Shown: one piece after another, positions 9,001 to 12,000 of the stretch
Position numbering within the stretch: position 1 is the first letter of the stretch
Layout: each line of letters begins with the position of its first letter
Virus record (IMG/VR): IMGVR_UViG_2874945390_000002
Coordinates: 1-40,023 of that record
Source: a virus
Lineage: Duplodnaviria; Heunggongvirae; Uroviricota; Caudoviricetes
Reading direction: 5' to 3' (one strand)
DNA: 40,023 bases
Position numbers: made by a program

Positions 9001-12000
9001 GATCTGTCTGGGTTAAGCCGCTGCGTTGGATTACTGTCTGTAGATTTTTTAAGCGAATATCTTTGATTTCCATGCTTGCCTCATTGTTAGCCAAATGCTT
9101 TATAGCGTATTGCTGCATTGTGATCTCATGTGTTAATGTTAGCACGTTGCTAATAACCAATACAGTACGGGGTTTTTATGTCCAGTGGATTGCTCTCAAT
9201 CAGAGGTGTCATGAGCGCGGATGAATGGAGGAGGCTAGCACAGTTTTCTGGGACTAGCGTTGCATACCTGAATCAGATGGCTCTGGGTTTTAGGCGCCCC
9301 TCAGTTGCAATGGCTGAAAGAATTGAGGAGGCGGTATCTAAAGTGTCACCAACCCTCAAATTATCTAAAGAGAGCCTTATTTTTTCTCCATTACGGAAAA
9401 CAAATAGTGAGGTGTGACATGTCACAGCAGTCAACCGTAATGCCAGAGCGCTACTTCCAGAAGCTGCTGTCATGCAGCATCTGGTACGACCCGATCAGCT
9501 GAGTTTATAACCTCATAACGAAGCGGGAAGAGTAAGCCATGCAACAGGATTTAGTCAGGGTTGAAATGCCAGCATTTTATAGCCAAGTAGACACAGAGTG
9601 GATTCAGCAGCAGTTACAGGGGGTACCACCGTCACTGAGACGGAAGGTCGCCCTGAAATATGCGGAGGTATACGAAATCACTTTTGACGCTGAGCCTGTT
9701 TCATTCCGCAAGGAGAACAGAGCAAGGCATGAAGCAAACACAAGGCTTCGCCTGTTCGTGAGAAATCAGGGCAGGGCTTTACAGGGGTATACAACTCAGC
9801 CGCCTCTGGCAGGAACGCAATCGCGCTCCTGATTGGTACCGGGCTTAAAGGTGTCCGGTGGCTGATTGAAAATGGTAAAAATATTTAGACGTCTATATGT
9901 CTGGATGTGTTTACCACCCCCTAAATGTTTATGGGGGAAAGGGGGCGGTGTTGATCTTTTAGCGCGAAGCGCTGGAACAGGCTTTTCCAAGAAGACGGGT
10001 ACATAGGTTAGGTAGATCTCTGTAAAGGGGAAATACCAGAAGATGTCCAGACGCCTAGACGTCCAGATGTAAATGTTCAGAGGTGATTTTATGGTTAACA
10101 GTTTTGATGGTGAAAAATGGCTTCCGGTTCCTGTTGCTCCGTATGGTGATGCTTACCTCGTTAGCTCGGCGGGACGCATCCGTGGGGTTAATCGAATTGC
10201 TGAATCGGAATTTTTTATTCGCCAAATTCGTGGCGTGTTCCTCAAGGGAAGAGTGCGCCGGGATGGATATAAAACCGTTAACCTGAGCTACAAACGTAAT
10301 CGCCAAACTTTTGCCGTACACCGTCTGGTAGCGCTGGCTTTTTGCAGCAACCCTTACAACCACCCTGAAGTGAACCATAAGGACGGCAACAAGCTGAATA
10401 ACCATGCATCCAATCTGGAGTGGGTTAGCCATAGCGAAAACATTCAGCATTCTATTCACACCGGGCTGAATAATTCTCAGGGGGCGAACAACAAACAATT
10501 TAAGGGCCTGATTGTCGCCACAAATATTGCGACCAGGGAAGAGCAAACCTTTTGCGGGAAAAAGGCGCTAATTAGTGCCGGGTTTGATCACGGTAGTGTT
10601 TATGCTGTTATTGCTGGAAGAACAAAGTCTCATCGCGGTCACCATTTCAGGCGCCTCCCGCTGAACCATGGGGAGGCAGCACAATGCAGCTGACAATCAC
10701 GCCGAATTTTGCACAGGAACGGGCGTTAAACATGTTGCGCCGTGACTGGAAGGCAAACGACACCTTCATGGTGTACTCGCCAACCGGTAGCGGTAAAACG
10801 GGTCTGGCCGCCTTCATAGTTGCTGGTTTTGTCAGCCATGGTATGCGCGTTCTGTTCTGTGTTCCGTACACCATCCTGATTGGTCAGACGGCTAATCGGT
10901 TCGTGCAGTATGGTTTACCTGGAGATGAAATCGGTTATATCTGGGCGGATCACCCGAACTACGATCCGGACCGGAAAATTCAGATTGCCAGCGCTGACAC
11001 GCTTATTCGTCGTGTTTTTCCTGAAAATATCGATCTGCTGATTATCGACGAAGCGCACCTGCGTAAAAAACGCATCCTGAAGGATATCGAACGTCTGCGC
11101 GGCAAAGGCGTAAAGGTGATTGGCCTGTCGGGTACTCCGTTTTCCCCGTTCCTGGGCAAATACTATGACCGACTGATTAAGCCGACCACAATCGGCGAGT
11201 TAATCCAGCGTGGCGATCTGAGTAAATACGAATTTTACGCGCCAACTAAGCCGGATCTGAAAGGTGTTAAAACCACATCTTCGCTTGAGTACGGCCGCGA
11301 TTACAACGAAACACAGCTGGCTGAAATCATGTGCGGATCTACGCTGGTGGGCGACATCGTACAGAACTGGTTGGAGAATGGCCGGGATCTACCTACCATC
11401 GCTTTCTGCGTCAACGTAGCTCACGCCAATTATCTGACAATCCAGTTTAACCTGGCGGGTGTTAACGCTGAGGTAATGACCGCCGACACTCCGGTAGATG
11501 AGCGCCAGACCATCATTCACCGCTTTGAAATCGGTGCAACGAAAATCATCGTTAGCGTGGGCGTTCTGGTGGCCGGCTTCGATAGTGACGTTCGTTGCAT
11601 CATCTACGCCAGGCCAACAAAAAGCGAAATTCGCTGGTTGCAGGCGCTCGGGCGTGGCCTGCGCACCGCACCGGGTAAAGAGTCCTGCCTCATCTTCGAT
11701 CACAGCGGCACCGTGCACCGTCTGGGTTATCCGGATTCAATCGAGTACGACGATCTTCCCGGCAAGTCTGATGGCATGGAGGAAAGCGTGCGCCGCGCAG
11801 CTGAGGAACGGGCCGAAAAGCTCCCGCATGAGTGCTCTCAGTGCCATTACATGAAACCTGCAGGCGTGTACGTCTGTCCGAAATGCGGACATAAGCCGTT
11901 GGCAGGTGAAGACGTCGACACAGACACCGGGCGCAAACTTAAAAAATTGGGTAAAAACCAGCTTCAGCCCACAAAGGCACAGAAACAAGCCTGGTGGAGT

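What the first reader, a model, noticed from the sequence alone, without database searches (positions are those of the whole stretch)
10091..10693. HNH homing-type endonuclease upstream of the replication genes
A NUMOD4-like N-terminus followed by an HNH motif (HKDGNKLNNH…SEN) marks a free-standing homing-type endonuclease. Its stop overlaps the helicase start (10684-10693), suggesting it inserted immediately upstream of the replication gene. Such selfish elements are less common in lambdoid prophages than in lytic phages.
Basis: partly seen in the sequence, partly recalled or inferred. Interest (0 to 1): 0.35.

Follow-up and report, generated by a model that had tools for sequence, protein, structure and literature searches.

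The report
Free-standing HNH endonuclease before phage helicase
The gene is an intact I-HmuI-type HNH "selfish" endonuclease sitting exactly on the ribosome-binding site of a prophage replication helicase gene; this is an ordinary, well-known kind of mobile gene, here with clear before-and-after relatives.

Summary
ORF 10091-10693 (+, 200 aa) has NUMOD4 and HNH_3 domains above Pfam thresholds. It aligns directly with the solved nicking homing endonuclease I-HmuI (E 1e-17), including its C-terminal helix-turn-helix, and its model's only significant PDB match is I-HmuI. Its TGA (10691-10693) overlaps the ATG (10684) of an SF2 helicase that is followed by a Toprim primase.

Near-identical relatives lack the gene. 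In E. coli, about 640 nt (window 10031-10669) is swapped for a 122-aa gene or for non-coding DNA, and the junction lies 14 nt before the helicase ATG. In Yersinia, 698 nt replaces 53 nt.

The gene is rare: 7 of 5,426 complete E. coli genomes, and 7 of 80 species-representative helicase modules. Three of those seven are truncated remnants. It always sits at this one site.

Intact copies are under purifying selection (dN/dS about 0.09), and their history differs from the helicase's.

The best reading is a free-standing homing-type, probably nicking, endonuclease. Cleavage and homing are untested.

Side finding: the alternative 122-aa gene has a PD-(D/E)xK nuclease fold.

Verdict: a new member of a known kind, of low interest.

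The parts
10091..10693 (+). HNH endonuclease ORF of 200 aa, a full-length I-HmuI-like protein
   Evidence: ORF. Pfam NUMOD4 + HNH_3. PHROG HNH families. PDB 1U3E at E 9.6e-18. Foldseek 1U3E at E 1.1e-11.
10112..10288 (+). NUMOD4 N-terminal DNA-binding region (aa 8-66)
   Evidence: PF07463, E 4.6e-9. Predicted beta-strands, pLDDT 78-95.
10313..10441 (+). HNH_3 catalytic core (aa 75-117). N95, H96, N108 and N117 align with I-HmuI D74, H75, N87 and N96.
   Evidence: PF13392, E 9.8e-9. Ungapped alignment to 1U3E across this motif. H96 and N108 invariant, N95 and N117 at least 90% conserved in 20 homologues.
10526..10654 (+). C-terminal helix-turn-helix DNA-binding domain (aa 146-188), like I-HmuI residues 129-170
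   Evidence: Alignment to 1U3E. PF22083 I-HmuI_NUMOD-like recorded for orthologues. Helices 157-162 and 167-174, pLDDT about 90.
10079..10086 (+). Shine-Dalgarno AGAGGTGA for the HNH ORF, 4 nt before the ATG at 10091
   Evidence: Read from the sequence. Conserved in HNH-carrying E. coli and Salmonella loci.
10031..10669 (+). Segment specific to HNH-carrying loci (about 640 nt). It is replaced by other DNA in near-identical relatives.
   Evidence: blastn breakpoints of the window against phi467, L002 and L003. L095 against phi467. Alignment A1.
10672..10693 (+). Helicase translation-initiation region (GGAGG, ATG 10684), which also encodes the last HNH codons and its TGA. This is the right-hand junction.
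   Evidence: The C-terminal tail ...E-A-x-Q-C is conserved in orthologues because it overlaps the helicase SD and ATG.
10684..12342 (+). SF2 (ResIII/DEAD + Helicase_C) replication helicase, the gene next to which the HNH is always found
   Evidence: Pfam and PHROG 16. Synteny in Yersinia, Serratia, Salmonella, Morganella, Providencia, Xenorhabdus and Chania.
12344..13312 (+). Zn-ribbon/Toprim primase, the second gene of the replication module
   Evidence: Pfam Toprim_3, Zn_Ribbon_Prim, DUF7146 and PHROG 510.
9539..9832 (+). phrog_852 gene (97 aa, function unknown), the left-hand conserved neighbour of the variable slot
   Evidence: PHROG 852, E 1e-38. Present upstream of the helicase in 77 of 80 surveyed loci.
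9833..10030 (.). Conserved non-coding region to the left of the cassette, possibly an origin or regulatory region. It holds site A (9886-9908), a C-rich/G-rich hairpin (9913-9949), the AGCGCGAAGCGCT mini-hairpin (9961-9973), the inverted repeat TGGAAC..TTCCAA (9973-9990) and the GGTTAGGTAGATCT box (10006-10019). The partner site B (10046-10070) lies just inside the cassette-specific segment.
   Evidence: No Rfam match.

Best explanation
This is a free-standing, I-HmuI-type HNH homing-type endonuclease gene. It is neither intron- nor intein-borne. It occupies the translation-initiation region of the SF2 helicase gene in the early (replication) operon of a lambdoid prophage.

Shown:
- It is an intact three-part protein: a NUMOD4 beta-sheet DNA binder, a single beta-beta-alpha-metal HNH site and a C-terminal helix-turn-helix.
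- It has its own Shine-Dalgarno, and its stop overlaps the helicase start.
- It is present or absent between otherwise near-identical phages at one fixed position.
- It is rare, it occurs as decayed remnants, and intact copies are under purifying selection.

Inferred:
- After induction or infection it is co-transcribed, and probably translationally coupled, with the helicase.
- As a monomer with one active site it nicks, or cuts by sequential nicks, a long degenerate site in the p852-helicase interval or the helicase 5' end of a co-resident relative that lacks it.
- Replication or recombinational repair from the HNH-carrying copy then copies the gene and flanking markers into that relative. 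This is intronless homing, or marker exclusion.

In this particular window the prophage is defective, so the gene is a passenger that could act only if the early operon is still expressed.
For: Family and intactness:
- Pfam NUMOD4 and HNH_3 score above their cut-offs.
- phmmer against the PDB finds I-HmuI 1U3E at E 9.6e-18 over aa 47-188.
- The AF2 model (pLDDT 84) has I-HmuI as its only significant PDB match, E 1.1e-11 over 192 columns.
- The catalytic His96 is invariant, and N95, N108 and N117 are conserved.
- dN/dS is 0.075-0.10 among E. coli and Salmonella copies.

Insertion polymorphism:
- E. coli L095 and phage phi467 are collinear at 96-97% except that 639 nt (HNH) stands in place of 524 nt.
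- The window-specific segment is 10031-10669.
- E. coli L001 (HNH+) differs from HNH-less L002 and L003 at only 32 and 23 positions in the 3.5 kb downstream.
- In Yersinia, L007 against L030 shows 698 nt replacing 53 nt directly before the helicase ATG, with flanks 96.0% and 93.5% identical.

Sporadic distribution and decay:
- 7 of 5,426 complete E. coli genomes carry it, always as a single copy at this locus.
- In 80 species-representative helicase modules there are 4 full-length copies and 3 truncated remnants that lack the catalytic or C-terminal half.

Fixed site:
- Every orthologue examined, down to 47-61% identity, abuts the same helicase in Yersinia, Serratia, Salmonella, Morganella, Providencia, Xenorhabdus and Chania.
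- This holds whatever lies upstream: a RepL-like gene in L013, L061 and L085, or a leader ORF in L054.

Independent history:
- L013 and L061 helicases are 98.8% identical (dS 0.16), but their HNHs are only 69% identical (dS 1.26).
- The window and L095 HNHs are 100% identical, but their helicases are 92.8% identical.

Precedent:
- I-HmuI is a nicking homing endonuclease (PMC3017599).
- I-HmuI-like HNH genes of Skunavirus cluster by insertion site and show marker exclusion (PMC12724721).

Dispensability:
- The isolated temperate phages phi467 and Fels-1 have the same replication module without the HNH.
Against: - No cleavage site could be identified. There is no excess synonymous-site conservation at the helicase 5' end.
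- The two HNH+/HNH- 'fixed' differences seen at helicase nt 4 and 39 are not general, because HNH-less phi467 carries the HNH-type base at nt 4.
- Ordinary mosaic recombination between lambdoid phages could produce the same presence/absence pattern without any endonuclease activity.
- The metal-ligand position that is Asp74 in I-HmuI is Asn throughout this clade. This is probably tolerated but is untested.
- Long co-residence with the helicase-primase module across genera, together with strong purifying selection, would also fit a useful (domesticated) role.
- The host prophage in this window is defective.
Confidence: 0.75

Rival explanations
1. Domesticated or accessory nuclease partner of the replication module. 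In this reading the HNH works with the SF2 helicase and primase, for example by nicking at the adjacent origin-like region to start or re-start replication, or by degrading competitor or host DNA. The slot before the helicase would then be a place where functionally analogous nucleases (HNH or PD-(D/E)xK) are exchanged.
For: - The gene is always directly 5' of, and overlapping, the helicase gene across genera.
- It is under strong purifying selection, dN/dS about 0.09.
- The commonest alternative occupant of the slot also has a nuclease fold. Its best PDB matches are Bax1, the nuclease partner of the SF2 helicase XPB, then NucS and McrC.
- A conserved origin-like non-coding region lies just upstream.
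- RepL-like initiator-type genes occupy the same slot in 8 loci.
Against: - 41 of 77 evaluable modules have no gene of 90 aa or more in the slot, with a gap of 440 nt or less.
- The isolated temperate phages phi467 and Fels-1 lack the HNH.
- Truncated remnants without a catalytic site persist in front of intact helicases.
- The paired palindromic sites in the upstream region occur in empty loci too, and Yersinia HNH+ loci share the site type of empty Yersinia loci. They are therefore not HNH-specific.
- The HNH and helicase histories are incongruent.
Confidence: 0.13
2. Inactive relic. The ORF would be a fossil of an old insertion kept open only because its 3' end carries the helicase ribosome-binding site, with no current endonuclease activity.
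For: - Truncated versions in L074, L077 and L082 keep exactly the part that overlaps the helicase start.
- The Asp74-equivalent metal ligand is Asn.
- The host prophage in this window is defective and full of IS elements.
Against: - dN/dS is 0.075-0.10 over the whole 200-aa protein at dS 0.6-1.1.
- The catalytic His and the Asn residues are conserved in all full-length orthologues.
- All three domains are predicted confidently.
- Asn at the Asp74 position is itself conserved, which is not what decay would give.
Confidence: 0.07
3. Packaging-associated HNH. This would be the HK97 gp74 or zinc-ribbon type, which assists terminase at cos sites.
For: Many prophages encode such an HNH protein (PMC3592412, abstract seen).
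Against: - The gene lies in the early replication operon between the immunity region and the Q antiterminator, not next to a terminase.
- The window has no terminase or head genes at all.
- The protein is NUMOD4 + HNH_3 + HTH and I-HmuI-like, with no CxxC zinc pairs in the sequence.
Confidence: 0.01

Closest known systems
I-HmuI / I-BasI (Bacillus phages SPO1 and Bastille; PDB 1U3E)
   Same: The three-part architecture is the same: an N-terminal beta-sheet DNA binder (NUMOD4), a single HNH beta-beta-alpha-metal site and a C-terminal HTH. The sequences match directly at E 9.6e-18, and I-HmuI is the only significant fold match. The general-base His and the two Asn residues are conserved. I-HmuI is a monomeric strand-specific nicking enzyme with a degenerate site of about 24 bp (PMC3017599), so nicking is the default expectation here.
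   Different: I-HmuI is encoded inside a group I intron in a DNA polymerase gene of a lytic Bacillus phage. This gene is free-standing, lies between genes of a temperate enterobacterial prophage and sits next to an SF2 helicase. Identity is only about 28-35%. The metal-ligand Asp74 is Asn in this clade. The target site is unknown.
Free-standing HNH and GIY-YIG homing endonucleases of T-even phages (MobE, SegG and others)
   Same: These are intergenic, ORF-sized insertions in operons of DNA-metabolism genes, present or absent between close relatives. They cut the neighbouring conserved gene of the endonuclease-less phage and spread with flanking markers (PMC2790892, abstract). The pattern seen here matches in its fixed site, sharp junction at a gene start and sporadic distribution.
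   Different: Those are in lytic phages, and their cleavage and trans-homing have been demonstrated. Here neither is shown, and the host is a prophage in which opportunities for co-infection differ.
I-HmuI-like HNH endonucleases of lactococcal Skunavirus
   Same: They belong to the same structural family, vary in number and position between phages and cluster phylogenetically by insertion location. Marker-exclusion activity has been shown for some (PMC12724721). Here too the clade is defined by one insertion location.
   Different: Those are in Gram-positive lytic phages at several sites per genome. Here there is one site, in enterobacterial temperate phages.
HNH homing endonuclease fusion in the P22-like phage epsilon34 (gene 31)
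   Same: It is a documented example of a putative HNH homing endonuclease in the early region of a lambdoid or P22-like temperate phage (PMC2629481). Such genes are therefore uncommon in lambdoid phages but not unprecedented.
   Different: That gene is in the early-left operon and is fused to an eaE-like N-terminus. This one is in the early-right replication operon and is not fused.

Membership tests
I-HmuI-like HNH endonucleases (NUMOD4 - HNH_3 - HTH) | N-terminal NUMOD4 DNA-binding module | tested here: met
   PF07463, E 4.6e-9, 36.8 bits against a cut-off of 23.4, aa 8-66.
I-HmuI-like HNH endonucleases (NUMOD4 - HNH_3 - HTH) | HNH_3 beta-beta-alpha-metal motif with the general-base His and the structural and metal-binding Asn residues | tested here: met
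   PF13392, E 9.8e-9. H96, N108 and N117 align with I-HmuI H75, N87 and N96 and are conserved in 20 homologues. One variation: I-HmuI Asp74 is Asn95 here, and that Asn is conserved across the clade. The residue roles in I-HmuI are from my own knowledge of the 1U3E paper, not tested here.
I-HmuI-like HNH endonucleases (NUMOD4 - HNH_3 - HTH) | C-terminal helix-turn-helix DNA-binding domain | tested here: met
   aa 146-188 align with I-HmuI 129-170. PF22083 I-HmuI_NUMOD-like is recorded on orthologues. Two helices are predicted at pLDDT about 90.
I-HmuI-like HNH endonucleases (NUMOD4 - HNH_3 - HTH) | Overall fold similar to the solved I-HmuI structure | tested here: met
   Foldseek against the PDB gives 1U3E at E 1.1e-11, probability 1.00, 192 aligned columns, TM 0.48/0.55. 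The next hit has E 0.1. The modest TM score is expected for an extended multi-domain protein modelled without DNA.
I-HmuI-like HNH endonucleases (NUMOD4 - HNH_3 - HTH) | Site-specific, strand-specific DNA nicking | not testable with these tools
   Needs purified protein and substrate mapping.
Free-standing homing endonuclease genes (functional class) | Stand-alone ORF with its own translation signals, not inside an intron or intein | tested here: met
   It has its own SD and ATG. The helicase ORF is uninterrupted. No group I or II intron or any other Rfam family is found in 8000-11000.
Free-standing homing endonuclease genes (functional class) | Presence/absence polymorphism at one fixed site between otherwise near-identical genomes | tested here: met
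   E. coli L095 against phi467. L001 against L002 and L003. Yersinia L007 against L030.
Free-standing homing endonuclease genes (functional class) | Sporadic distribution with degenerate copies (the invasion-decay-loss cycle) | tested here: met
   7 of 5,426 E. coli genomes. 4 intact copies plus 3 truncated remnants among 80 helicase modules.
Free-standing homing endonuclease genes (functional class) | Evolutionary history independent of the flanking host gene | tested here: met
   L013 against L061: helicase 98.8% identical, HNH 69%. Window against L095: HNH 100%, helicase 92.8%. General phage mosaicism could also cause this.
Free-standing homing endonuclease genes (functional class) | Cleaves the endonuclease-less allele near the insertion site and is copied into it (super-Mendelian inheritance) | not testable with these tools
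   No target site could be inferred from sequence. Needs cleavage assays and phage crosses.
Terminase-associated (cos-packaging) HNH proteins | Gene adjacent to the terminase or cos site, and a zinc-binding CxxC pair in the HNH domain | tested here: not met
   The gene lies in the early replication operon, and no terminase or head genes are in the window. The translation has no CxxC pairs.

The most novel reading that the evidence does not exclude
The interval immediately 5' of this phage SF2 helicase gene may be a dedicated nuclease-partner slot. In this reading, unrelated nuclease folds (I-HmuI-type HNH, or a 122-aa PD-(D/E)xK protein whose best structural match is Bax1, the partner of the archaeal SF2 helicase XPB) are exchanged as working partners of the helicase-primase. 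They might nick the adjacent origin-like region or destroy rival replicons. The HNH would then be a co-opted replication or competition factor rather than a purely selfish gene.
Probability: 0.12. Interest if true: 0.55.

Novelty: new member of a known kind. Interest (0 to 1): 0.2.

Why it matters
Mostly this is tidy confirmation. The gene is a textbook free-standing homing-type endonuclease, already auto-annotated in RefSeq as a 'NUMOD4 domain-containing protein'.

Its modest value is as a clean natural system. Filled, alternatively filled, empty and decayed versions of one site all exist in culturable enterobacterial temperate phages and prophages (phi467, Fels-1, E. coli and Yersinia lysogens). 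Intronless homing between prophages could therefore be tested directly.

The side observation deserves a look by people studying phage replication modules. Two unrelated nuclease folds and an initiator-like gene alternate in the same slot, next to a conserved origin-like region.

Tried and rejected
1. Cassette-specific binding sites. In E. coli and Salmonella the paired palindromic sites flanking the conserved 62-nt block co-vary with the cassette: TAGACGTC-type with HNH, GTAC..GTAC-type with the 122-aa gene. This suggested that the HNH might bind them, as an initiator or autoregulator. I rejected the idea because Yersinia HNH+ loci carry the GTAC-type sites, identical in type to empty Yersinia loci, and TAGAC-type sites occur in empty Atlantibacter and Serratia loci. 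The co-variation is haplotype linkage.

2. 'Immunity' substitutions. Helicase nt 4 (C/G) and nt 39 (G/A) separated three HNH+ loci from three HNH- loci. HNH-less phi467 has the HNH-type C at nt 4, so I dropped this.

3. A nucleotide-level conserved target at the helicase 5' end. Third-codon-position entropy for codons 3-16 (1.56) is no lower than for codons 17-60 (1.43) across 77 distinct loci. There is no signal.

4. Structured RNA or intron. Rfam at E up to 1 finds nothing in 8000-11000.

5. Promoter and terminator scans of 9400-10800 give no more hits than shuffled sequence.

6. Sequence searches for the 122-aa alternative gene in Pfam, NCBIfam and the PDB gave nothing. Only structure prediction plus Foldseek identified its fold.

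7. The literature search found no description of this HNH-helicase association.

8. The single-linkage cluster that lumped the HNH with a 275-312-aa family was an artefact of read-through ORFs. An HMM search shows that only 7 slot ORFs contain HNH sequence.
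Full report
**1. The observation**

The + strand ORF 10091..10693 encodes 200 aa. A longer in-frame ATG at 10073 lacks a Shine-Dalgarno. The 10091 ATG follows AGAGGTGA at 10079-10086, and RefSeq uses the equivalent start.

- Pfam gives NUMOD4 (E 4.6e-9, aa 8-66) and HNH_3 (E 9.8e-9, aa 75-117). Both score above their curated cut-offs.
- PHROG families 59, 959 and 1492 ('HNH endonuclease') match at E 1e-40 to 1e-34.
- The stop TGA at 10691-10693 overlaps the ATG at 10684 of a 552-aa SF2 helicase (ResIII/DEAD + Helicase_C) by 10 nt. GGAGG lies 7 nt before that ATG.
- The helicase start is genuine. Its N-terminus is conserved from residue 1-3 in 79 of 80 homologues from other species.
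- A Zn-ribbon/Toprim primase (12344..13312) follows. A 97-aa phrog_852 gene (9539..9832) precedes.

**2. What the protein is**

- It aligns directly with the solved homing endonuclease I-HmuI (PDB 1U3E). The E-value is 9.6e-18, and aa 47-188 align with residues 26-170, including the C-terminal helix-turn-helix.
- An AlphaFold2 model built on 20 homologues has mean pLDDT 84.3. I-HmuI is its only significant PDB match: Foldseek E 1.1e-11, probability 1.00, 192 aligned columns.
- In the alignment, ungapped across the catalytic motif, I-HmuI D74, H75, N87 and N96 correspond to N95, H96, N108 and N117.
- H96 and N108 are invariant, and N95 and N117 at least 90% conserved, in a 20-sequence alignment. 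The one departure, Asn for the Asp74 metal ligand, is a conserved clade feature and not a sign of decay.
- Nei-Gojobori dN/dS among the E. coli and Salmonella copies is 0.075-0.10 at dS 0.6-1.1. The whole protein is therefore under purifying selection.

**3. Relatives with and without it**

*E. coli complete genomes.*
- 100 of 5,426 complete genomes have the helicase module. Only 7 have the HNH, always as a single copy at this locus. RefSeq annotates it as a 'NUMOD4 domain-containing protein'.
- In the others the same slot holds either a 122-124-aa hypothetical gene or no annotated gene.

*E. coli breakpoints.*
- E. coli L095 (HNH+) and phage phi467 are collinear at 96-97% on both sides. Between the flanks, 639 nt stands in place of 524 nt, and the right breakpoint lies 14 nt before the helicase ATG.
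- In window coordinates the HNH-specific segment is 10031-10669.
- Downstream, HNH+ L001 differs from HNH-less L002 and L003 at only 32 and 23 positions in 3.5 kb.

*Yersinia.*
- Y. enterocolitica L007 (HNH+) and Y. proxima L030 (empty) have flanks 96.0% and 93.5% identical. Between them, 698 nt replaces 53 nt.
- The HNH ORF sits exactly on the helicase ribosome-binding site, and a GAGGT Shine-Dalgarno is present at both ends.

**4. Distribution**

- Orthologues at 47-89% identity in Salmonella, Yersinia, Serratia, Morganella, Providencia, Xenorhabdus and Chania all abut and overlap the same helicase.
- I surveyed 80 species-representative genomes carrying the helicase at 60-93% aa identity. 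Four have a full-length HNH.
- Three more (L074, L077, L082) have remnants of 110-167 aa. These keep NUMOD4 but lack part or all of the catalytic motif and the whole C-terminal DNA-binding half. They still end on the helicase start.
- Of 77 evaluable loci:
  - 41 have a phrog_852-to-helicase gap of 440 nt or less.
  - 12 carry the 122-aa gene.
  - 8 carry a RepL-like winged-helix gene.
  - About 10 carry an unknown family of 275-312 aa.
- The HNH is always the occupant nearest the helicase. This holds even when a RepL-like gene (L013, L061, L085) or a leader ORF (L054) lies upstream.

**5. Independent history**

- The L013 and L061 helicases are 98.8% identical (dS 0.16), yet their HNH genes are 69% identical (dS 1.26).
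- The window and L095 share a 100% identical HNH but have helicases 92.8% identical.
- The Yersinia helicase is the closest of the distant set to the window's (76%), while its HNH (57%) is no closer than those beside 65-66% helicases.

The cassette therefore moves, or is exchanged, independently of its neighbour.

**6. Mechanism**

These points are established:
- The family assignment and the intact domains.
- The operon position and the stop/start overlap.
- The fixed insertion site, the sporadic and decaying distribution, and purifying selection on intact copies.

These points are inferred:
- Expression with the early replication operon.
- Site-specific nicking by a monomer with one HNH site, by analogy with I-HmuI. 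I-HmuI nicks one strand of a degenerate site of about 24 bp (PMC3017599).
- Repair-mediated copying of the gene into HNH-less relatives. These could be resident prophages or a co-infecting phage.

I-HmuI-like HNH genes of Skunavirus likewise cluster by insertion location, and some show marker exclusion (PMC12724721). I could not infer a target. Candidate 'immunity' substitutions did not hold up, and the helicase 5' end shows no excess synonymous conservation. Ordinary lambdoid mosaic recombination remains a possible non-enzymatic cause of the polymorphism.

**7. Rivals**

*Replication-partner role.* This is suggested by the invariant adjacency to the helicase, by purifying selection and by the nuclease fold of the alternative occupant. 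Three findings argue that the gene is dispensable:
- Most modules are empty.
- The isolated phages phi467 and Fels-1 lack the HNH.
- Catalytically dead remnants persist in front of intact helicases.

The paired palindromic sites upstream at first looked cassette-specific. They occur in empty loci too and do not track the HNH in Yersinia.

*Dead relic.* This is contradicted by dN/dS and by residue conservation.

*Packaging-type HNH.* This is excluded by position and architecture.

**8. Context**

The window is a defective lambdoid prophage. It has these features:
- An integrase (75..1361).
- HTH repressor-like genes (8026..8514 and 8618..9160, minus strand) and a small Cro-position ORF (9178..9417, no family match).
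- A Q-like antiterminator (14169..14984).
- tRNA-Arg(UCU).
- Lambda-type gpZ, a tail tube, a tape measure, J and tail fibres.
- No lysis, terminase or head genes.
- Four IS transposase genes, one of which splits the tape-measure gene.

Whether the HNH is ever expressed in this particular copy is uncertain.

**9. Novelty and score**

The family, the mechanism class and the evolutionary pattern are all well known. [quoted passage not shown] This specific clade and its fixed association with the SF2 helicase start are, as far as my searches show, undescribed.

Verdict: a new member of a known kind, interest about 0.2. The most novel reading not excluded is a nuclease-partner slot of the helicase-primase module, which I give about 12%.

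Noticed in passing
L002 4086-4454; L004 3500-3874; phi467 L099 2001-2369; Fels-1 L100 1888-2256 (STM0899): The commonest alternative occupant of the slot is a 122-124-aa 'hypothetical' gene (phrog_1347) with no Pfam, NCBIfam or PDB sequence match. It is predicted (pLDDT 84.6) to have a PD-(D/E)xK restriction-endonuclease-like fold, with conserved D58, E72 and D74. Its best PDB matches are Bax1 (the nuclease partner of the SF2 helicase XPB), NucS/EndoMS, McrC and the R2 endonuclease domain. Two unrelated nuclease folds therefore alternate in front of the same helicase.
   Followed up: partly
window 9833-10070: A conserved non-coding region lies between the phrog_852 gene and the cassette. It contains:
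- Two about 20-bp palindrome-like sites about 155 bp apart (9886-9908 and 10046-10070).
- A C-rich/G-rich hairpin (9913-9949).
- An AGCGCGAAGCGCT mini-hairpin (9961-9973), which shows a compensatory C:G to T:A change in the other haplotype.
- An inverted repeat TGGAAC..TTCCAA (9973-9990).
- A GGTTA(G/A)GTAGATCT box (10006-10019) found upstream of the helicase in many genera, 130-240 nt before it in loci without a cassette.
It is possibly the origin or a regulatory region of this replication module. There is no Rfam match.
   Followed up: partly
L003 (E. coli VR50) about 4207-4275; also L002, L014-L023: In HNH-less E. coli-type loci a 19-codon mini-ORF (MKTTSQNYYLISTGAAQWS) ends at the same TGA that overlaps the helicase start. 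It is preceded by a GGCTGGCAGCC...GGCCACCAGCC hairpin. The HNH ORF replaces this leader and reuses its last codons and stop.
   Followed up: no
L074 3146-3505; L077 3173-3505; L082 3001-3504: These are truncated HNH remnants of 110-167 aa. NUMOD4 is retained, the catalytic motif is partial or absent and the C-terminal half is deleted. They still terminate on the helicase start. They occur in an unnamed Enterobacteriaceae isolate, Citrobacter meridianamericanus and 'Ca. Pantoea gossypiicola'.
   Followed up: yes
L013 4460-5008; L061 2340-2888; L085 2337-2885; L078 2965-3501 and four others: A RepL-like winged-helix (replication-initiator-like) gene occupies the same slot in 8 of the surveyed loci. 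In the surveyed loci L061 and L085, and in the separately fetched L013, it lies just upstream of the HNH.
   Followed up: partly
L042, L049, L055, L056, L059, L065, L067, L088, L090 (slot ORFs of 267-312 aa): A further slot occupant is a family of 267-312 aa with no Pfam match, mainly in Photorhabdus and Xenorhabdus prophages. L057 has a truncated copy.
   Followed up: no
window 3747-4565, 6057-6875, 16364-17560, 22616-23962: The window holds four IS transposase genes: two IS3-family (rve) copies, each encoding 272 aa, one IS110-family and one IS4-family. The IS4 copy lies between the two halves of the tape-measure gene (21025-22605 and 24039-25535).
   Followed up: partly
window 14984-18594: No lysis, terminase, portal or head genes were found between the Q antiterminator (14169-14984) and gpZ (18594-19151). 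That interval holds an unassigned ORF, tRNA-Arg(UCU) at 16265-16338 and the IS110 copy. The prophage is a defective remnant.
   Followed up: partly
L001 4103 versus the annotated 4151 (NZ_OZ546925.1, WP_509923836.1): In some HNH-carrying genomes PGAP starts the helicase 16 codons late, apparently to avoid the overlap with the HNH ORF. The longer start is conserved across genera.
   Followed up: yes
window about 11684-12184 (helicase nt 1000-1500): 48 of the 135 differences between the window and L001 in the 3.5 kb downstream of the helicase ATG fall in this 500-nt patch. It appears to be a separate mosaic recombination tract inside the helicase gene, unrelated to the HNH junction.
   Followed up: no
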